In this document: positions 33,154-40,514 of the stretch, in pieces
Numbering within the stretch: the first letter of the stretch is position 1
Layout: each line of letters starts with the position of its first letter
Sequence record: MK962753.1
Source: Shigella phage JK32
Length of the DNA: 64,000 nucleotides
Direction: 5' to 3' (one strand)
The notes under the pieces: generated by a model
Told to the model about the DNA's origin: nothing
Databases searched by the model: none
The model's input: the letters and a program-made list of their open reading frames with translations, nothing else
Translations under genes and position numbers: made by a program

Positions 33154-33184
33154 TTGATACTCCTTAGTAGTTCGTTTCGGTATG

Positions 33185-33225
33185 TGTGCATTATAGGGGA
33201 TCGATGATCCCCTGTCAACAACTTT
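33185..33225 (-). promoter_or_regulatory. Early sigma70-type promoter cassette with palindromic spacer (PeSL-like), copy 1
   Basis: Minus strand TTGACA-17 nt (GGGGATCATCGATCCCC)-TATAAT, then conserved leader ..CGAAACGA..AAGGAG..ATG. Confidence 0.65.
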
Positions 33226-33744
33226 TTAGTTATTTTTTAATTGCTCATCTTGCAATAAAGCAATCACATGCTGGCGATGTTCTTCCGATTGAGGCACACC
33301 GAAAAAGTTTGTTTTGTAGAAATACTCTAATCGGTCTTCTCGTGTGCTCTCTTCCATCATGATCGCGGGTAGTCCGAGATTTCGGAAACGTCGCTTTTCT
33401 GCTGGCGTAAAATCGCTGTAATACAGCATAGAATCATCATTACCAGCAATGCTAAACTCATCCTTCATGAAGGAGAATATTGCGTTTAAACGCTGTTTAC
33501 CGTCCACTATTTCGATTTCATAGCGAGAGCCATCATCAATCTTAGCCATTGCGATAGCACCAACCGGAAAATCATTAATCAGGTTTTCGATAAACATACG
33601 TTTGTTTTCTGTGTCCCATACTAAAGGACGCTGATAATCTGGGTTCATGTTGATATAGCCATCTTCTAACCATGCATCATAAACAGAGATGACAAAGTTT
33701 TTAGTATTGGTATAGTAACGGCGTTTAGGCGTTAAACGGTTCAT
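33226..33744 (-). CDS. DUF262/ParB-like nuclease domain protein
   Basis: Motifs DYQRPLVW...FPVGAI...IVDGKQRLNAI match the DUF262 (GmrSD N-terminal-like) signature; start at ATG 33744 with RBS AGGAGA (ORF track gives 33780). Confidence 0.6.
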   Translation of the reverse strand: MNRLTPKRRYYTNTKNFVISVYDAWLEDGYINMNPDYQRPLVWDTENKRMFIENLINDFPVGAIAMAKIDDGSRYEIEIVDGKQRLNAIFSFMKDEFSIAGNDDSMLYYSDFTPAEKRRFRNLGLPAIMMEESTREDRLEYFYKTNFFGVPQSEEHRQHVIALLQDEQLKNN

Positions 33745-33745
33745 G

Positions 33746-34078
33746 TTATAGTCTCCTGAATGGATCATCACGTAAATCAATATCTTTTAAGAACTCATCC
33801 CATGAATGGCGGATATTGTTCTTAATTCTCCAGATAAGCGCAGGGATTGAACGCTCTCCCATCTGGAAGTAAGGATCATATGATCCGTATGCCCAATATG
33901 CTACTACAATTCCACAATCAGCGCAATAGTATTCTATTTCACTTGCTGGCGACCAAAGTCCATCAATATGATCGGTGATCTTGCTTTCGATGTTATGGCT
34001 ATGGCAATCAGGGCAACGGATGCAATGACCTTGTTTATCGTAATTTGACGTTAGCGAATACTTAAACAATCTCATCAT
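33746..34078 (-). CDS. Zn-ribbon protein (CxxC...CxxC)
   Basis: 110 aa with CIRCPDCHSH and CADCG pairs; stop abuts next start. Confidence 0.5.
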   Translation of the reverse strand: MMRLFKYSLTSNYDKQGHCIRCPDCHSHNIESKITDHIDGLWSPASEIEYYCADCGIVVAYWAYGSYDPYFQMGERSIPALIWRIKNNIRHSWDEFLKDIDLRDDPFRRL

Positions 34079-34791
34079 AGATCCTTATTGGCTTCAAATA
34101 CTGCCTTTGCGAATCCTCGCGGGGTAAGTGACCTGATAGTCTTTGTTCTGGTTCCTTTTCCGCCTAGCTTAGAATGCTGTTTGCTGTACCCTTTATTAAT
34201 CGGCAACGGTTTCTTTTCTGGCATTATAAAGCCTTGTCCGGTCCATAAGCAAGTCTTTTTCGGGTACATATCACGGGAGGCAATATACTCAGGAAACGTA
34301 GGATGTATATCATCTTCCGGCAAATAACCGCCATATTCCCACGGATGGAACATGTAATCAGGCTTACGCCACATACTAGAGATAACGCTTACAGGATTCT
34401 CTATCATGTAGGGAACTCCTAGCCATTCACCCAAATAAGCGGTTATTTTAGCTGCCCGTACATCATGAACTTGAATCAATGGTCCTTGCTCTCGTTTCTT
34501 TCGTTCAAAGTGTGCAGCGCCACTAACAGCTAAATTGGTGCACGGTGGGAATGCAAATATAATATCCGGTTTCCCCCATTCAAGGTCCATTGCTCTTTCC
34601 AGCCAGTTCAAATCAATCCATGTGTTTACATAGGTAATGTTTGGATGTTCAAATCGGGTATTATACTTTTTGTATGTGCCGTGGTCGCCATCGTCAGCAT
34701 TAAAGCAGATCACCTTATGACCTGCTTTAGCCCATTCTAGCCCCATTATCCCCGATCCGTCAAAGTTGCAGAATATTAATTTTTGTTTCAC
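34075..34791 (-). CDS. C5-cytosine methyltransferase-like protein (motifs I, IV, VI only)
   Basis: FCNFDGSGIMGLEWAKAG (motif I-like), IIFAFPPCTNLAVSGA (PC motif IV-like), VPYMIENPVS (ENV motif VI-like); only 238 aa, no recognisable target-recognition domain. Confidence 0.5.
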   Translation of the reverse strand: MKQKLIFCNFDGSGIMGLEWAKAGHKVICFNADDGDHGTYKKYNTRFEHPNITYVNTWIDLNWLERAMDLEWGKPDIIFAFPPCTNLAVSGAAHFERKKREQGPLIQVHDVRAAKITAYLGEWLGVPYMIENPVSVISSMWRKPDYMFHPWEYGGYLPEDDIHPTFPEYIASRDMYPKKTCLWTGQGFIMPEKKPLPINKGYSKQHSKLGGKGTRTKTIRSLTPRGFAKAVFEANKDL

Positions 34792-35039: not shown

Positions 35040-35074
35040 TGTTTGATTCTCCTAAGTAGTATCTCGTCTTGATG

Positions 35075-35115
35075 TGTGTAGTATAGGGGATCTCCCGATC
35101 CCCGTCAACAACTTT
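35075..35115 (-). promoter_or_regulatory. PeSL-like early promoter cassette, copy 2
   Basis: TTGACG-17 nt (GGGATCGGGAGATCCCC)-TATACT on minus strand. Confidence 0.6.
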
Positions 35116-35123
35116 TTTTAAAA

Positions 35124-35405
35124 TTATTCGTGATTAGTTTCGATGTTGTACATTTTGCACCAGTTCAGCCAATCGCCCAGATCTTGATAGTTGATGCTTT
35201 TATCTGCTGCCATCGTTTTTGTCTTGATACCCATATGTGCGTTATGAGTAAGCATTTTTACAGTGAACTCAATTTTATCGCCTTTAGCTTTAACATCAAC
35301 CAGTTTGGTCCACTGGCTACCAGCGCCGCGAATGTTCATACCAACGATGTTTCCGATGTATGCTTCTTTGTTTTTCAGGATTTCGGTTGCTTTGATGAAT
35401 TTCAT
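35124..35405 (-). CDS. Hypothetical early protein (93 aa)
   Basis: ORF with RBS GGAGAG downstream of promoter cassette. Confidence 0.55.
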   Translation of the reverse strand: MKFIKATEILKNKEAYIGNIVGMNIRGAGSQWTKLVDVKAKGDKIEFTVKMLTHNAHMGIKTKTMAADKSINYQDLGDWLNWCKMYNIETNHE

Positions 35406-35434
35406 TTTTGACTCTCCAGTTCGTTTCGGTATGG

Positions 35435-35475
35435 GTGTATTATGCTATGTTCTTACTTTGGTGTCAACAACTTTT
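35435..35475 (-). promoter_or_regulatory. Early promoter cassette, copy 3 (no palindrome in spacer)
   Basis: TTGACA-17 nt-CATAAT with conserved CGAAACGA leader. Confidence 0.55.
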
Positions 35476-35745
35476 TTAGATATTTTCAGAAATAAATTTT
35501 AAAACTTGACGTAAATGCTTCTCATCTTTGATAGTCGCCGGAAGTTCTTCTTTTACTTCCTGTGCAAGATAGATATTGCCGTTCCAAGTGAAAGATCCGT
35601 CTTCGTTTACGCGATAGCTGAACATCCATTCGCAATCATTTTCGATTTCATATACACACAGAAGGGTGTAATCTTCAAAGCTATTGATTTCAAGGTCGAG
35701 GCCGTGACGTTTTGCAAAGTTGGTAGTGGTTTTAGTCAATGCCAT
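35476..35745 (-). CDS. Hypothetical early protein (89 aa)
   Basis: ORF downstream of promoter cassette. Confidence 0.55.
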   Translation of the reverse strand: MALTKTTTNFAKRHGLDLEINSFEDYTLLCVYEIENDCEWMFSYRVNEDGSFTWNGNIYLAQEVKEELPATIKDEKHLRQVLKFISENI

Positions 35746-35779
35746 TGTTTGATTCTCCTAAGTAGTATCTCGTTTCGAT

Positions 35780-35820
35780 GGGTGTATTATGATATAGGCG
35801 TGATCTGGTGTCAACAACTT
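35780..35820 (-). promoter_or_regulatory. Early promoter cassette, copy 4
   Basis: TTGACA-17 nt-CATAAT. Confidence 0.55.
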
Positions 35821-35835
35821 TTTTAAAATTTAGGC

Positions 35836-35859
35836 AATAAAAAGCCGACACTAAGGTCG
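35836..35859 (-). terminator. Rho-independent terminator (minus strand)
   Basis: GCCGAC-ACTAAG-GTCGGC hairpin plus U-run on minus transcript; near-identical copy at 36341..36364. Confidence 0.6.
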
Positions 35860-36254: not shown

Positions 36255-36284
36255 CTTTATTTCCCTCAATCTCGTTTCGATGGG

Positions 36285-36325
36285 TGTATTATGCTATACA
36301 CAGGATCTAGTGTCAACAACTTTTT
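36285..36325 (-). promoter_or_regulatory. Early promoter cassette, copy 5
   Basis: TTGACA-17 nt-CATAAT. Confidence 0.55.
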
Positions 36326-36340
36326 AAAATTTTATGCAAT

Positions 36341-36364
36341 AAAAAAGCCGACACTAAGGTCGGC
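36341..36364 (-). terminator. Rho-independent terminator (minus strand)
   Basis: Same GCCGACACTAAGGTCGGC hairpin as at 35836. Confidence 0.6.
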
Positions 36365-36372
36365 TAATAAAA

Positions 36373-36678
36373 TCATTTAGACAAATAATCATTCTGTGCA
36401 ATCCGGTCGGCATGTTCCGGCGTTACGTCAATTGCAATCACTTTAACGCGCGCTTTCTTGACTGAATTTTCTCGTAGCCAGTGCGTGTGACCGTGCACAT
36501 TTTTATATTTTGATGCGGTTTCGAAGGTACGGATCGGACCTGGGTAATCAGCGTAAAGGATCTCTAGGTCATCGGTGATGTAAAAATATACGTTGTAATT
36601 ACTGTTCTCTAGCTTAAGCAGAGACTTTCGGAACATTGGGAGATTTTCGCGGGTAAATTCAAAGATATTATCTTTCAT
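36373..36678 (-). CDS. HxHW-family paralogue 1 (uncharacterised small protein family)
   Basis: 101 aa; conserved Y.Y(I/V)D..L......HGHTHW......VIAIDV signature shared with five neighbouring ORFs. Confidence 0.6.
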   Translation of the reverse strand: MKDNIFEFTRENLPMFRKSLLKLENSNYNVYFYITDDLEILYADYPGPIRTFETASKYKNVHGHTHWLRENSVKKARVKVIAIDVTPEHADRIAQNDYLSK

Positions 36679-36728
36679 AGTATTATCCTCAATAGTTGGA
36701 TGAAAAGGGGGCTTAACGCCCCCATATA

Positions 36729-37016
36729 TTAAAACAGTCCTTCCTGTACACCGTAGTAGAGTTCGTCGCTGATAATTTCATTAATGCGACGGTGTGCATA
36801 TTCCTGATTTGCGAAGTTGTCAGCAAGTTCTACTTTAGTTTCGCCGTCATGAGTCCATTTAGTGATAACTTTACCGTCTGCAAATTTGAAGTTGAACTCT
36901 TTAGCTACTGCATCGCGTACCAGACGTGCAAACTTATTGTTGCGGATTGCATTATCGGTTTCGTGTGCAGCGTGAGCAAATTTGTTAACTTTCAGCGTGA
37001 TAGTGATGTATGCCAT
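36729..37016 (-). CDS. Hypothetical early protein (95 aa)
   Basis: ORF with RBS GGAGAA downstream of promoter cassette. Confidence 0.55.
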   Translation of the reverse strand: MAYITITLKVNKFAHAAHETDNAIRNNKFARLVRDAVAKEFNFKFADGKVITKWTHDGETKVELADNFANQEYAHRRINEIISDELYYGVQEGLF

Positions 37017-37059
37017 AATTTGATTCTCCTAGTTAGAAAGTGTATCTCGTTTCGATGGG

Positions 37060-37100
37060 TGTATTATGCAATACACCCGATCTTATGTCAACACTTTTTA
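37060..37100 (-). promoter_or_regulatory. Early promoter cassette, copy 6
   Basis: TTGACA-17 nt-CATAAT. Confidence 0.55.
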
Positions 37101-37391
37101 TAAAATAATTTTTTGATATTTTTCTATGATGTTCGTGTAATCCACATCAACCGCTATCACCGTTGCTTCGAATCCACCGTTTAGCCAATGGCTATGGTCA
37201 TGATCGTGAAAGAAACCAAGACCAGTACGAAGACCTTCTTTATATTCGGCGCGTACATTTAGATCATCATCGATAAACAGATAAAACCATGAATTTTTAC
37301 TAGGATTGATGATACAACCTTTCAGATTAGGGAGAATATCACGACTAAGAATAAACTTATCACCTACTTTGAACATAATATTAGTCCTCAC
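37098..37391 (-). CDS. HxHW-family paralogue 2
   Basis: 97 aa; FYLFIDDDL...HDHDHSHW...VIAVDV. Confidence 0.6.
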   Translation of the reverse strand: MRTNIMFKVGDKFILSRDILPNLKGCIINPSKNSWFYLFIDDDLNVRAEYKEGLRTGLGFFHDHDHSHWLNGGFEATVIAVDVDYTNIIEKYQKIIL

Positions 37392-37701
37392 TTATAAGGT
37401 CAAACCAATTGTTTTTCGCATAATGCTTAATGCGTGCTTGATCTGCTTCCGCTGGTGATAGATTCCATGCAACCACTACAACTTCTGACGCATCGTCATC
37501 CGTTTCTGATACCCAATGATTATGATTCATACAATTGTTTGCTATCGCGTGAGCAAATGATTTCATCACTGGAGACGTATAATCATAGTAACGGATTTTC
37601 AGATTTTCATCAACGTACAAATAGATCGTATAAGGTTTATATTCAGTAACCAGTAACAGACAGTTACGCAATTCTGGGAAAATATTTTTAGTTAATTTCA
37701 T
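37381..37701 (-). CDS. HxHW-family paralogue 3 (divergent)
   Basis: 106 aa; IYLYVDENL...NHNHW...VVVVAWNL. Confidence 0.55.
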   Translation of the reverse strand: MKLTKNIFPELRNCLLLVTEYKPYTIYLYVDENLKIRYYDYTSPVMKSFAHAIANNCMNHNHWVSETDDDASEVVVVAWNLSPAEADQARIKHYAKNNWFDLISED

Positions 37702-37903
37702 ATTCTAGTTCTCCGTAATACACGGTAATCCATTTTTCTTCATACTTTGTATCTTTCCAACACACAATCCCGTTTACTGTGCAATCTTTGGAATTGACGA
37801 ATGATTCATATTGTTCTGCATCTTCCATCATTGCATGAGCGGTCTTTTCATCGAATATATCGCAGATCGCTTTATATGCTCGATAATCTTTAAATTTGCT
37901 CAT
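37688..37903 (-). CDS. Small protein, tandem paralogue A (MSKFKDY...)
   Basis: Start placed at ATG 37903; homologous to next ORF (MSKFKDY.AY, MMEDA, GIV.WK.T.Y...WI.V). Confidence 0.5.
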   Translation of the reverse strand: MSKFKDYRAYKAICDIFDEKTAHAMMEDAEQYESFVNSKDCTVNGIVCWKDTKYEEKWITVYYGELEYEIN

Positions 37904-37905
37904 AA

Positions 37906-38115
37906 TTAAGACCACTCAAGAGTTTTTGAAAACACATCTATCCATTGTTGAGTATATGCGGTTTCTTTCCATGATACAATACCAGTCGAATAATGGTTTT
38001 TGTTTCCAGAAAAGGACGGGCATTTTGAGGCATCTTCCATCATCTTTTCGGCGAACTCTGGTTCGTATACTCGCAAGATCTGTTGATATGCTTTATAATC
38101 TTTAAATTTGCTCAT
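37906..38115 (-). CDS. Small protein, tandem paralogue B (MSKFKDY...)
   Basis: 69 aa; paralogue of 37688..37903. Confidence 0.5.
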   Translation of the reverse strand: MSKFKDYKAYQQILRVYEPEFAEKMMEDASKCPSFSGNKNHYSTGIVSWKETAYTQQWIDVFSKTLEWS

Positions 38116-38380
38116 AATTGTTAACTACCTTATCAGCTTCTTTTATTGTTTTTACATCAACTGCGATAATCCGTAAAGGTTCGTCGAAGGTCCACCAATG
38201 ATCGTGAATATCGGCTTGTGATTTATCACCAAAGGAATCACGAATATCATTTTTACATTTATAGCTAATGTGACCTTCATAGTCAACATAAAGGTAATTA
38301 TCGAAAATCGGCGTTTTTAAGATCATACCGAAAAATCTTTCTTTGTGTGTCTTATCCAGTGTTGCAGTAATTCTCATCAT
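38102..38380 (-). CDS. HxHW-family paralogue 4
   Basis: 92 aa; YLYVDYEG...IHDHWW...IIAVDV. Confidence 0.6.
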   Translation of the reverse strand: MMRITATLDKTHKERFFGMILKTPIFDNYLYVDYEGHISYKCKNDIRDSFGDKSQADIHDHWWTFDEPLRIIAVDVKTIKEADKVVNNYEQI

Positions 38381-38392
38381 AATATATTCCTC

Positions 38393-38572
38393 TTAGAAAG
38401 GGATGGTCATTTCTTGAGCTTGTACATTCTCGTTAGGATTAAACTTCATCCAACCGATATTGTCTACCAGCATATGCACATTTTTATCATATCCTACGTG
38501 AGTAGTCAATACTGTATGTGCTTTACCTTCAACGATGATTTCCATGTACTTCTGAACTTCGATAGCTTTCAT
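38393..38572 (-). CDS. Small hypothetical protein (59 aa)
   Basis: ATG preceded by GGAGAATCAAA leader of a promoter cassette; not in ORF track (below cutoff). Confidence 0.4.
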   Translation of the reverse strand: MKAIEVQKYMEIIVEGKAHTVLTTHVGYDKNVHMLVDNIGWMKFNPNENVQAQEMTIPF

Positions 38573-38599
38573 TTTGATTCTCCGTTTGTTGTCTTGATG

Positions 38600-38640
38600 G
38601 GAGTATCTTACTACTCCCTTTAATCATTGTCAACGATTAT
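38600..38640 (-). promoter_or_regulatory. Early promoter cassette, copy 7 (weaker -10)
   Basis: TTGACA-17 nt (palindrome GGGAGTA..TACTCCC)-TAAGAT. Confidence 0.45.
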
Positions 38641-38804
38641 TTGTTAATTTCCGGTGCGTTGCTTGGATAGTAACCTTCTTTAACACCCAGATATTTTGCA
38701 ACCATTCCGGTGATCTTCTGTGCTACTACGATATCGAATTTCAGGTAGTCTTCACCGTGGTTTGCTACAATGTATGCTTCGCATTCTGCTTTAGTCTGGA
38801 ACAT
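38637..38804 (-). CDS. Small hypothetical protein (55 aa)
   Basis: Start at ATG 38804 with RBS GGAGAA; the longer ORF-track form 38637..38840 would translate the promoter -10. Confidence 0.45.
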   Translation of the reverse strand: MFQTKAECEAYIVANHGEDYLKFDIVVAQKITGMVAKYLGVKEGYYPSNAPEINK

Positions 38805-38834
38805 TTTTGATTCTCCTATATCTCGTTGGTATGT

Positions 38835-38875
38835 GTGCATTATAGGGGATCGGTGACCCCCCTGTCAACAACTTT
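38835..38875 (-). promoter_or_regulatory. PeSL-like early promoter cassette, copy 8
   Basis: TTGACA-18 nt (GGGGGTCACCGATCCCC)-TATAAT. Confidence 0.6.
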
Positions 38876-39178
38876 TTATTCTTCGTCTTTATCTTTATAT
38901 GCGTATTTCATAAATTTGTCTGCCACTTCGTCCGCGTTTTCAGGTTCTACGTCTGACGCTAGGACAACAGCTAGTTCGGTTTTGTCGTTTCCATCATACC
39001 AATGATTATGAGTGTCGTTTTCTTCGATATAAAACGAATCATTTGGAGATGGGCGACAATATACGTCTAAATTCCCATCGATATAAAAGATCCAATCCGA
39101 ATACAAAATGATTGTTTTAGCCAGATTTTTATTGTCTCTTACAAAAGGTTCCGCGACAAATAGCTTAGTTTGTTCCAT
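38876..39178 (-). CDS. HxHW-family paralogue 5
   Basis: Start at ATG 39178 with RBS GAGGAG; IFYIDGNL...DTHNHW...AVVLASDV. Confidence 0.6.
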   Translation of the reverse strand: MEQTKLFVAEPFVRDNKNLAKTIILYSDWIFYIDGNLDVYCRPSPNDSFYIEENDTHNHWYDGNDKTELAVVLASDVEPENADEVADKFMKYAYKDKDEE

Positions 39179-39194
39179 AGTAATCTCCTCAAAA

Positions 39195-39386
39195 TTATAC
39201 AACTTCGTAAACTTCCCAATGTCCAACACCGGAACGCTTAACGAAAAGGTTTTCTTTGATGTTATTCATAAACGTCTGGATGGATTTAATGCGGTTGGAA
39301 GGTTTCCAGTCTTCGTTGGCATTGCGGCGATACATAATAACATTACCAGTTCTCTTATATTCAGCAACCATTTTAAGACCACACAT
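39195..39386 (-). CDS. Small hypothetical protein (63 aa)
   Basis: ATG with RBS GAGGA. Confidence 0.45.
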   Translation of the reverse strand: MCGLKMVAEYKRTGNVIMYRRNANEDWKPSNRIKSIQTFMNNIKENLFVKRSGVGHWEVYEVV

Positions 39387-39443
39387 AATATTATCCTCAA
39401 TTTATGGGAGAGTATTACCCCTCCCAATGATTGTTATATTACA

Positions 39444-39764
39444 TCACATAAAATGGCGTTTCAATGCTTCTTTTGCGGTTCCGCTAAGACTTTCGATCTC
39501 GCCTGGCATAACATCAACTGCCAGAACTTCTACAACATCCTCTGACCCCAACCAGTGAGTATGACCTTTGTAGAACTTGATAACCAGACTACCTTCCTCA
39601 TCCCATTTAACGCTATCGCTAGCCCACCACACATCACCGTCGATAAAGTTGATGTAAAGCACACTACGCCACATTGAATTAATTACTTTCAATACTGCGC
39701 CTTTCATATCTTCCACGGTGTGGTCTTCCATTTTGAAGACCTCGCCTACCTGAACTTTTGCCAT
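39444..39764 (-). CDS. HxHW-family paralogue 6
   Basis: 106 aa; LYINFIDGDV...KGHTHW...VLAVDV. Confidence 0.6.
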   Translation of the reverse strand: MAKVQVGEVFKMEDHTVEDMKGAVLKVINSMWRSVLYINFIDGDVWWASDSVKWDEEGSLVIKFYKGHTHWLGSEDVVEVLAVDVMPGEIESLSGTAKEALKRHFM

Positions 39765-39781: not shown

Positions 39782-39961
39782 TTACATAACAATCACGCCA
39801 GCCGTTGAAAGTTGATGTTTCAACTGAGCATTTTCTGCTACTGTCAAATCAATGATTTCTTGTGACGCTGCAATCATATAACCATTGGTGATATTGTTTT
39901 GCATCAGTTCAATGGTTTCTTCGTTGTAGCGGATTTTAGCGATGATTTCGTTGAAGTTCAT
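39782..39961 (-). CDS. Small hypothetical protein (59 aa)
   Basis: ATG directly after promoter-cassette leader GGAGAATCAAAC; below ORF-track cutoff. Confidence 0.4.
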   Translation of the reverse strand: MNFNEIIAKIRYNEETIELMQNNITNGYMIAASQEIIDLTVAENAQLKHQLSTAGVIVM

Positions 39962-39989
39962 GTTTGATTCTCCTAGTTCGTTTCGGTAT

Positions 39990-40030
39990 GTGTGTAGTAT
40001 AGGGGATCACCGATCCCCTGTCAACAACTT
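39990..40030 (-). promoter_or_regulatory. PeSL-like early promoter cassette, copy 9
   Basis: TTGACA-17 nt (GGGGATCGGTGATCCCC)-TATACT. Confidence 0.6.
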
Positions 40031-40037
40031 TTTTGAA

Positions 40038-40514
40038 TTATTTTTCTTGATGCTCGCGCTCGTACTTTTCGAAATAAAATTCTACTGGCTGGTCGTGGAT
40101 TGACAGTAAGCCAAAGCGTTTAGCCGCTCGCAACCCCATATTGCGCTGAATGTACTTCTGGAAGTTCTCGCGTATACACTTACGCCAGTATTCTAAGCCC
40201 ATACAGCTTTTATAAAGATTGCATTGCACACACGCCGGATTCATGTTATCAAGTATATCATGCTCCGGTTTATGCATTCCTACAACCTTATACTTCCACG
40301 ATCCATCATCATTACGGGCAATTCGTCCATTTTCATCATAGACTACTTTTGAGCGTCGTAATACTGGTTTGATGTGGTCTGCGTGCCAGCGATCCCCTAG
40401 TTCCTCGCCACAATAGGCACAACGTCCACCATATTTCATTTTCAGGATCTGGCGTTGCTCTTTCTTTGACAATTTTTTAGGTTTAGGGGCTTTCGCCCCT
40501 TCATTATCACACAT
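40038..40514 (-). CDS. HNH endonuclease
   Basis: CAYCGEEL....WHADHIKP......CVQCN is a classic HNH motif; sits directly upstream of DNA ligase, overlapping its stop. Confidence 0.7.
   Translation of the reverse strand: MCDNEGAKAPKPKKLSKKEQRQILKMKYGGRCAYCGEELGDRWHADHIKPVLRRSKVVYDENGRIARNDDGSWKYKVVGMHKPEHDILDNMNPACVQCNLYKSCMGLEYWRKCIRENFQKYIQRNMGLRAAKRFGLLSIHDQPVEFYFEKYEREHQEK

What the first reader, a model, noticed from the sequence alone, without database searches (positions are those of the whole stretch)
36373..39764. Six-member tandem paralogue family of small proteins with a conserved H-x-H-W ... (V/I)(I/L)A(V/I)DV signature
Within 3.4 kb of the hyperplastic early region, six ORFs of about 90-106 aa (36373..36678, 37098..37391, 37381..37701, 38102..38380, 38876..39178, 39444..39764) share the same architecture: an aromatic beta-like segment (Y.Y(I/V)D..L), an invariant His-x-His-Trp motif (HGHTHW, HDHDHSHW, NHNHW, HDHWW, HNHW, HTHW) and a hydrophobic (V/I)IA(V/I)DV segment about 10 residues later. 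Most have their own early promoter cassette. I do not recognise the family. Repeated diversified copies of a small early gene with a metal-binding-like His cluster are what one expects of phage counter-defence or host-takeover gene families, but that role is inference.
Basis: seen in the sequence. Interest (0 to 1): 0.8.

Follow-up and report, generated by a model that had tools for sequence, protein, structure and literature searches.

The report
Six-copy orphan early-gene family, RB49-like phage
A T4-type coliphage of the RB49 group carries six old, diverged copies of one small early gene whose protein resembles nothing known; the family is real and kept by selection, but its role (probably binding a host or defence factor) is still a guess.

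Summary
The window is a Krischvirus (RB49-like) genome, and the region is the alt–ligase hyperplastic region. The six minus-strand ORFs (RB49 ORFs 197, 199, 200, 203, 206, 208) are true paralogues. In leave-one-out profile tests each member is recovered at E 1e-5 to 7e-14, against 0.014 or worse for the best unrelated ORF. H-x-H-W and an Ala align in register.

All six are intact and syntenic in nine genomes, with dN/dS of 0.12–0.24. There is no seventh copy in the window or in the rest of the closest relative's genome. The copies are 23–35% identical, and subfamily orthologues occur in divergent metagenomic T4-like contigs, one as a natural two-domain fusion. The array is therefore ancient, not a recent amplification.

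Two points in the finding are wrong:
- None of the six sits directly behind an early promoter cassette (PeSL); all are second or later genes in three of the region's four promoter units.
- The first His and the Asp are not invariant family-wide, which weakens the metal-site idea.

The invariant His-Trp lies between the two most variable loop segments. My best guess is a set of diversified early binding proteins acting in host takeover or counter-defence. This is untested.

The parts
36373..36678 (-). p1, 101 aa (RB49 ORF197 orthologue; phrog_9345). Second gene behind the promoter at 37091-37063, after a GC hairpin at 36723-36707.
   Evidence: dN/dS 0.21
37098..37376 (-). p2, 92 aa from the ATG at 37376 (RB49 ORF199; phrog_17255). 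Motif HDHDHSHW.
   Evidence: dN/dS 0.12
37381..37701 (-). p3, 106 aa (RB49 ORF200; phrog_9345, closest paralogue of p1). Strand motif VVAWNL.
   Evidence: dN/dS 0.24
38102..38380 (-). p4, 92 aa (RB49 ORF203; phrog_15972). Second gene behind the promoter at 38633-38605.
   Evidence: dN/dS 0.18
38876..39178 (-). p5, 100 aa, very acidic (pI 4.3, net charge -13) (RB49 ORF206; phrog_15965). Two allele classes in the genus. Its 3' end abuts PeSL206/205.
39444..39764 (-). p6, 106 aa (RB49 ORF208; phrog_16486). Second gene behind the promoter at 40024-39996.
   Evidence: dN/dS 0.14
39974..40049 (-). PeSL early promoter cassette (TTGACA-17-TATACT with a GC stem-loop between the boxes). It drives g59b, p6, g63 and p5.
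   Evidence: PeSL concept from PMC2839356
38817..38892 (-). PeSL206/205 cassette (12/12 consensus promoter plus stem-loop). It ends the p6-p5 unit and drives the non-family gene 38637-38804.
   Evidence: experimentally a strong promoter in RB49/phi1 (PMC2839356)
38584..38633 (-). Early promoter-like site (TTGACA-17-TAAGAT) that drives g59, p4, g69, g71, p3 and p2.
   Evidence: (D5)
37044..37120 (-). PeSL cassette (TTGACA-17-CATAAT) that drives g95 (36729-37016) and then p1.

Best explanation
The six ORFs are functional protein-coding genes. They belong to one ancient superfamily of roughly 85-115-aa soluble proteins restricted to the Krischvirus lineage.

The AlphaFold model shows a small beta-sheet core with a C-terminal helix. 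A long, low-confidence loop carries the invariant His-Trp, usually as H-x-H-W.

The genes are transcribed early by host sigma70 RNA polymerase, as promoter-distal genes of three PeSL-driven units. My proposal is that each paralogue acts stoichiometrically as a binder or modulator of a different host (or defence-system) macromolecule or small ligand. In this view the conserved core is a scaffold, and the His-Trp anchor plus its hypervariable flanks form the recognition surface.

Shown here:
- paralogy
- purifying selection
- ancient origin and fixed copy number
- orphan status
- the promoter layout
- the pattern of loop variability

Inferred only:
- early expression
- the binding mechanism
- the target class
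For: Paralogy.

Real genes:
- All six are intact and syntenic in nine Krischvirus genomes, with dN/dS of 0.12-0.24.
- Each has a GAGG-type Shine-Dalgarno sequence.

Ancient and non-redundant:
- Paralogues are 23-35% identical.
- Divergent metagenomic T4-like contigs carry orthologues of the p1/p3, p4, p5 and p6 subfamilies, in roughly the same order. L005, whose ligase is 72% identical, is one of these contigs.
- There are exactly six copies per genome.

Early expression:
- Only sigma70-type PeSL promoters lie upstream, and there is no TATAAATA late motif in the region.
- RB49 lacks MotA and middle promoters (PMC1524935).
- PeSL206/205 is an experimentally strong promoter (PMC2839356).

Not an enzyme of a known kind:
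- No Pfam, NCBIfam or PADLOC match.
- PDB sequence search gives E of 0.04 or worse.

Recognition-loop pattern:
- Within-subfamily entropy is 1.02 and 0.93 bits in loop residues 46-63 and 68-77.
- It is 0.14 bits in the HxHW motif and 0.48-0.63 bits elsewhere (Mann-Whitney p = 4e-9).
- Net charge ranges from +1 to -13 among the paralogues.

Against: - There is no expression, interaction or phenotype evidence of any kind.
- The fold matches are not significant.
- The motif loop is the least confident part of the model (pLDDT 55-65), so its high variability could simply reflect a floppy, unconstrained loop.
- Stable six-copy synteny and purifying selection are not the turnover usually seen for arms-race genes.
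- The family is absent from all other T4-type genera, so it cannot serve a general T4-type function.
- A catalytic or metal-dependent role for the His residues is not excluded.
Confidence: 0.45

Rival explanations
1. They are metal-binding proteins. The H-x-H, together with the conserved Asp of the 'A-x-D-V' strand, coordinates Zn, Ni or Fe, either as a small metalloenzyme or to sequester or deliver a metal during infection.
For: - HxHW is present in 92 of 95 full-length representatives.
- p2 has an extended HDHDHSHW motif.
- An acidic residue (D or N) follows the conserved strand in most members.
- There are weak, non-significant PDB sequence hits to a cupin (vicilin, E 0.19) and to a histidine-triad zinc protein (E 0.39).
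Against: - The first His is Ser in P0078 and P0080 (P0080 stands for 25 member sequences) and Asp in P0086.
- The Asp is Gly in five representatives.
- There are no conserved Cys or further His residues.
- Two ligands on one loop are too few for a stable mononuclear site unless the protein oligomerises.
Confidence: 0.25
2. The paralogues are subunits of one hetero-oligomeric early complex and work only together.
For: - All six co-occur in every genome examined.
- The subfamily order is roughly conserved in the divergent contig L003.
- There is a natural fusion of two family domains in one 203-aa protein, P0087.
- Adjacent genes are tightly coupled (p3/p2 are 4 nt apart).
Against: - The complete ligase-to-alt region of L005 holds only two members, both p5-like.
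- The copies sit in three separate promoter units with hairpins between some of them.
- Evolutionary rates and allele classes differ between copies; p5 has 68% minimum identity against 96% for p2.
- The AF2 run on the P0087 fusion gave no usable model (pLDDT 34).
Confidence: 0.15
3. They are functionless or selfish ORFan filler, spread by PeSL-mediated shuffling or by a recent accordion-type amplification.
For: - The location is a PeSL-rich hyperplastic region known for shuffling and mini-circles (PMC2839356).
- Occasional truncated or chimeric alleles exist: P0068, P0069, P0081, P0082 and P0095.
Against: - dN/dS is 0.12-0.24 with all copies intact in nine genomes.
- Identity between copies is only 23-35%, and orthologous subfamilies occur in relatives whose ligase is 72% identical.
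- None of the six lies directly next to the promoter side of a PeSL, as the mobile ORFans do.
Confidence: 0.05

Closest known systems
PHROG families 9345, 17255, 15972, 15965 and 16486 (all 'unknown function')
   Same: These are the same proteins. Each window ORF matches its PHROG at E 1e-44 to 1e-71.
   Different: PHROGs splits them into five unrelated-looking families. Here they are shown to be one superfamily with a shared core and an H-W anchor. No function is attached to any of them.
PeSL-flanked ORFans of RB49/phi1 hyperplastic regions (Arbiol et al. 2010, PMC2839356)
   Same: Same phage group and same region, with the same sigma70-promoter plus stem-loop cassettes. PeSL206/205, tested there, is the cassette just 3' of p5.
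   Different: That paper describes mobile single ORFans (192, 210) directly behind PeSLs, and it does not contain the words 'paralog', 'ORF197', 'ORF200', 'ORF203' or 'ORF208'. The six genes here are promoter-distal, stable in all genomes examined, and paralogous.
Small phage anti-defence proteins and immunity proteins (Tad2/DUF2829 sponge 9eib, AcrIIA7 8kbi, T6SS immunity Tis1 6ox6_B)
Segmental ('accordion') amplification of counter-defence genes in T4 (tifA/dmd region, PMC9391042; SegB-driven amplification, PMC13096335)
   Same: Tandem multiple copies of small early genes in a T-even-type phage.
   Different: By the abstracts listed, those are recent amplifications arising during selection. 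Here the copies are 23-35% identical, each has orthologues in distant relatives, and the number is fixed at six.
H-x-H metal motifs (cupin motif 1; histidine-triad zinc proteins; HIT HxHxHxx)
   Same: An H-x-H dipeptide pattern. p2 alone has HDHDHSH.
   Different: Sequence E-values are 0.19-0.39. There is no cupin or HIT fold. The first His is replaceable.

Membership tests
One paralogous superfamily (this finding) | Each member is recovered by a profile built from the others, with motifs in the same alignment columns. | tested here: met
   Leave-one-out E of 1.5e-5 to 7e-14, against 0.014 or worse for non-members. Invariant H64, H66, W67 and A82.
Any curated protein family (Pfam-A, NCBIfam, PADLOC) | A hit at or above the curated gathering score. 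| tested here: not met
   The best Pfam hit is 17.7 bits against a 23.6-bit cut-off (PROCT, spurious). There is no significant NCBIfam or PADLOC hit.
PeSL-cassette ORFan (gene immediately downstream of a PeSL promoter) | The start codon follows the PeSL -10 box and the shared 'TAGGAGAATCAAA' leader. | tested here: not met
   All eight PeSL copies in 33-40 kb precede other genes. The six family genes are second to sixth in their units.
Tad2 / DUF2829 nucleotide sponge | A PF11195 sequence match, or a significant fold match to Tad2. | tested here: not met
Tad2 / DUF2829 nucleotide sponge | Binds and sequesters gcADPR or His-ADPR signalling molecules. | not testable with these tools
   This needs biochemistry.
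Cupin / HIT / histidine-triad metal proteins | A conserved full metal-ligand set (cupin two-motif barrel; HIT HxHxHxx) and the corresponding fold. | tested here: not met
Recent accordion amplification | Near-identical tandem repeat units with variable copy number between close isolates. | tested here: not met
   Identity is 23-35% between copies. Six copies are present in all nine genomes. DNA repeat finding shows no repeat between family genes.
Early-expressed phage gene | Transcript and protein detected in the first minutes of infection. | not testable with these tools
   Only promoter anatomy is available. No Krischvirus transcriptome was found in the literature searches.

The most novel reading that the evidence does not exclude
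The family may be a previously unrecognised scaffold for phage early 'recognition' proteins. A conserved beta core would present an invariant His-Trp (plus Tyr) anchor within hypervariable loops. Each of the five or six ancient subfamilies would then neutralise a different host immune component, or soak up a different nucleotide-type immune signal, as Tad and Acb sponges do. That would make the array a fixed multi-specificity counter-defence battery rather than a set of redundant copies.
Probability: 0.2. Interest if true: 0.8.

Novelty: new member of a known kind. Interest (0 to 1): 0.45.

Why it matters
RB49-like phages (Krischvirus) are common coliphages and Shigella phages, and some are used in therapy work. 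Most genes in their hyperplastic regions are unexplained.

Five 'unknown' PHROG families turn out to be one ancient six-copy superfamily under purifying selection. That turns 3.4 kb of anonymous ORFs into one tractable target: a single fold, a single invariant His-Trp anchor, and six natural specificity variants.

If the family proves to be a counter-defence or host-takeover scaffold, it would add a new protein class to that repertoire. It would also be an example of long-term retention of a multi-paralogue battery, as opposed to transient amplification. If it proves to bind metal, it would be a new minimal His-based site.

Tried and rejected
1. A seventh member: profile scans of all six-frame ORFs of the window and of the rest of the closest genome (Brandy) found none.
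4. An AF2 run on the natural two-domain fusion P0087, meant to show how two domains pack, used a single sequence and failed (pLDDT 34). It gave no information.
5. A second word-indexed search seeded with distant members added only one new protein.
6. Literature: no paper in the library names these proteins or the paralogy. The searches covered RB49/PeSL, paralogues, Krischvirus anti-defence, protein accessions, RNA-seq and accessory-gene screens.
7. Own promoters: weak promoter-like matches next to p2 and p4 (37403-37375 and 38410-38381) have their -10 box ending one base before the start codon, so they cannot give a translatable leader.
8. Late or middle expression: there is no TATAAATA in the region, and RB49 lacks MotA.
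9. Non-coding features: there are no Rfam or tRNA hits in 33-42 kb.
10. DNA mimicry as a family trait is rejected. Only p5 is strongly acidic, and p1 is slightly basic.
Full report
**Identity of the window.** The 4-kb region matches 58 phage records, all Escherichia/Shigella phages of the genus Krischvirus. The best match is Brandy MZ504876 at 96.7% and RB49 matches at 91%. In RB49 the region lies between alt and gene 30 (DNA ligase). Every gene in it is annotated 'hypothetical protein' and lies on one strand. The six ORFs correspond to RB49 ORFs 197, 199, 200, 203, 206 and 208.

**Check of the observation.**
- All six ORFs are present on the minus strand.
- MAFFT aligns them with M1, H64, H66, W67 and A82 invariant, and with the Y-x-Y-(I/V)-D strand and the hydrophobic A-x-D-V strand in register.
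- In leave-one-out tests, a profile of five members finds the sixth among 971 window ORFs at E = 7e-14 (p1), 1e-8 (p2), 2e-11 (p3), 1.5e-5 (p4), 1e-9 (p5) and 5e-8 (p6). The best unrelated ORF never scores better than 0.014.
- PHROGs places the six in five families of unknown function (9345 for p1 and p3, 17255, 15972, 15965, 16486), with weak cross-hits between them.
- The true p2 start is the ATG at 37376, not the GTG at 37391.

**Family size.**
- There is no seventh member in the window.
- There is none in the remaining about 105 kb of the closest genome, Brandy.

**Transcription anatomy.** The repeated 'early promoter cassettes' are the PeSLs of Arbiol et al. 2010. Each is a consensus sigma70 promoter with a GC stem-loop and a shared TAGGAGAATCAAA leader.

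Four promoters lie within the cluster. Reading along the minus strand, the units are:
1. P(40024-39996): g59b, p6, g63, p5.
2. P(38868-38839), which is PeSL206/205 and was shown experimentally to be a strong promoter (PMC2839356): g55 only.
3. P(38633-38605): g59, p4, g69, g71, p3, p2.
4. P(37091-37063): g95, a GC hairpin, then p1, then a terminator.

So none of the six has its own cassette, and all are promoter-distal. There is no late-promoter TATAAATA in the region. RB49 has no MotA or middle promoters (PMC1524935). Early expression is therefore the reasonable inference, but it is not demonstrated. No Rfam family or tRNA lies in 33-42 kb.

**Are they real, maintained genes?** I extracted the orthologues from nine Krischvirus genomes: the window, RB49, Brandy, GoldenSnicker, W115, Sf20, PHB13, E26 and FL20.
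- All six are intact and syntenic in every genome.
- Nei-Gojobori dN/dS is 0.21, 0.12, 0.24, 0.18, 0.21 and 0.14 for p1 to p6.
- They evolve faster than the PeSL-proximal neighbours g95, g55 and g59b, whose dN is about 0.
- p5 has two allele classes (minimum 68% amino-acid identity, dS up to 1.17).

**Age and distribution.**
- A word-indexed search of 5.8 billion proteins returned 83 hits, the longest on 160-176-kb Krischvirus-size contigs.
- An exhaustive HMMER profile search of 1.84 billion representatives returned only 20 hits at E of 1e-3 or better. The weakest (P0097, 532 aa, E 5e-4) looks like an unrelated repeat protein.
- The distant hits come from rare metagenomic contigs.
- L005 is a 20-kb T4-like contig covering the whole ligase-to-alt region. 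Its ligase is 72% identical to the window's, and it carries two p5-like members.
- L003 is a 2.1-kb contig with four adjacent genes and five domains, in the order p6-like, [g59-like], a two-domain fusion (P0087), p4-like, p3-like. This is roughly colinear with the window.
- Paralogues within the window are 23-35% identical, whereas subfamily orthologues across these phages are 35-53% identical.
- The duplications therefore predate the divergence of these lineages, so this is not a recent amplification.

**Motif conservation.** Among 97 representatives:
- 92 have HxHW.
- Two have SxHW (P0078 and P0080; P0080 stands for 25 sequences).
- One has DxHW.
- The two without HW are frameshift truncations.
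- The Asp after the conserved strand is D in 74, N in 12 and G in 5.

The truly invariant residues are one Tyr of the core strand (Phe in the p2 subfamily), the second His and the Trp. This weakens, but does not exclude, a two-His-one-Asp metal site.

**Structure.**
- AF2 with a 19-sequence alignment gave pLDDT 78.9 and pTM 0.74 for p1.
- The predicted elements are strands at 5-7, 19-23, 29-34 and 39-45, a long low-confidence loop (residues 46-76, pLDDT 55-65) carrying HxHW, a strand at 77-83 and a helix at 87-99.
- Foldseek against PDB gives E of 1 or worse.
- Foldseek against BFVD finds only five matches at E ≤ 1e-3: three in named Krischvirus phages (kvi, PHB13, JSE) and two unnamed.
- The PDB sequence profile search gives E of 0.04 or worse.
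- There is no Pfam, NCBIfam or PADLOC match.

**Variability pattern.** The table gives within-subfamily column entropy.

| Region (p1 numbering) | Entropy (bits) |
|---|---|
| Loop 46-63 | 1.02 |
| HxHW 64-67 | 0.14 |
| Loop 68-77 | 0.93 |
| Beta core 19-45 | 0.48 |
| Strand 78-85 | 0.53 |
| C-terminal helix 86-99 | 0.63 |

Loops against the rest give Mann-Whitney p = 4e-9. Net charge ranges from +0.9 (p1) to -13 (p5). An invariant anchor inside the most variable segments is what a diversifying recognition surface looks like. It could equally be a loosely constrained loop around a structurally needed Trp.

**Interpretation.** What is shown is an ancient, lineage-restricted, six-copy orphan superfamily of small soluble proteins. 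It is maintained by purifying selection and sits promoter-distal in early PeSL units. What is inferred is that the proteins act early as stoichiometric binders of different host or defence targets or ligands (confidence about 0.45).

The rivals are:
- a His-based metal site (0.25);
- an obligate hetero-oligomer (0.15), favoured by the P0087 fusion and the co-occurrence, but disfavoured by L005 having only p5-like copies;
- functionless filler (0.05), contradicted by the selection and orthology results.

**Literature.** None of the searches returned a paper that names these proteins or describes the paralogy. The accessory-gene screen of Silas et al. does not mention RB49 or Krischvirus.

**Verdict.** The functional interpretation is plausible but untested. 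In novelty terms it is a new, uncharacterised protein superfamily of a familiar kind, namely early accessory ORFans in a T4-type hyperplastic region. Interest is moderate.

Noticed in passing
window 37688-37903 and 37906-38115 (- strand): There is a second, two-member tandem paralogue pair (71 and 69 aa, both beginning MSKFKDY and both phrog_8471). The copies share a 90-nt 5' DNA repeat at 73% identity. Homologues sit next to HxHW-family members in the metagenomic contigs L004 and L005.
   Followed up: partly
window 36729-37016, 38637-38804, 39782-39961 (- strand): The small genes directly behind PeSL promoters (g95, g55, g59b) are almost invariant at the protein level across nine genomes. Their dN/dS is 0-0.03 with dS of 0.07-0.13. 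They are far more constrained than the family genes behind them, and their function is unknown.
   Followed up: partly
window 33168-33243, 35058-35133, 35417-35492, 35767-35843, 36269-36345, 37044-37120, 38817-38892, 39974-40049: Eight copies of the PeSL cassette lie within 7 kb. Each has a sigma70 consensus promoter with an internal GC stem-loop and a shared leader. The window lacks RB49 ORFs 192, 210 and 211, so the PeSL at 39974-40049 directly abuts the HNH endonuclease gene. ORFans 192 and 210 are the PeSL mini-circle ORFans of Arbiol et al..
   Followed up: partly
window 36679-36727 and 39387-39428 (- strand): p1 and the unrelated 63-aa gene at 39195-39386 share a promoterless leader: a GC-rich hairpin followed by ATTGAGGATAATA(C/T)TATG. 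This may be an attenuator-plus-ribosome-binding-site module distinct from PeSLs.
   Followed up: no
proteins P0081, P0068, P0069 (phage kvi), P0082 (phage JSE), P0095: Occasional damaged alleles of family members exist in the databases. They include frameshift truncations and one chimera that joins the first nine residues of g59 (38393-38572) to the C-terminal half of p6. Individual copies can therefore be lost in some isolates.
   Followed up: partly
locus L003 823-1434 (protein P0087): One 203-aa protein in a metagenomic relative is a natural fusion of two family domains (p2-like N-terminal, p5-like C-terminal). It is followed directly by p4-like and p3-like genes.
   Followed up: partly
window 33746-34078 and 34075-34791 (- strand): A 110-aa protein with CxxC...CxxC zinc-ribbon-like spacing sits immediately downstream of the DNA methyltransferase gene, and the two genes overlap.
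   Followed up: no
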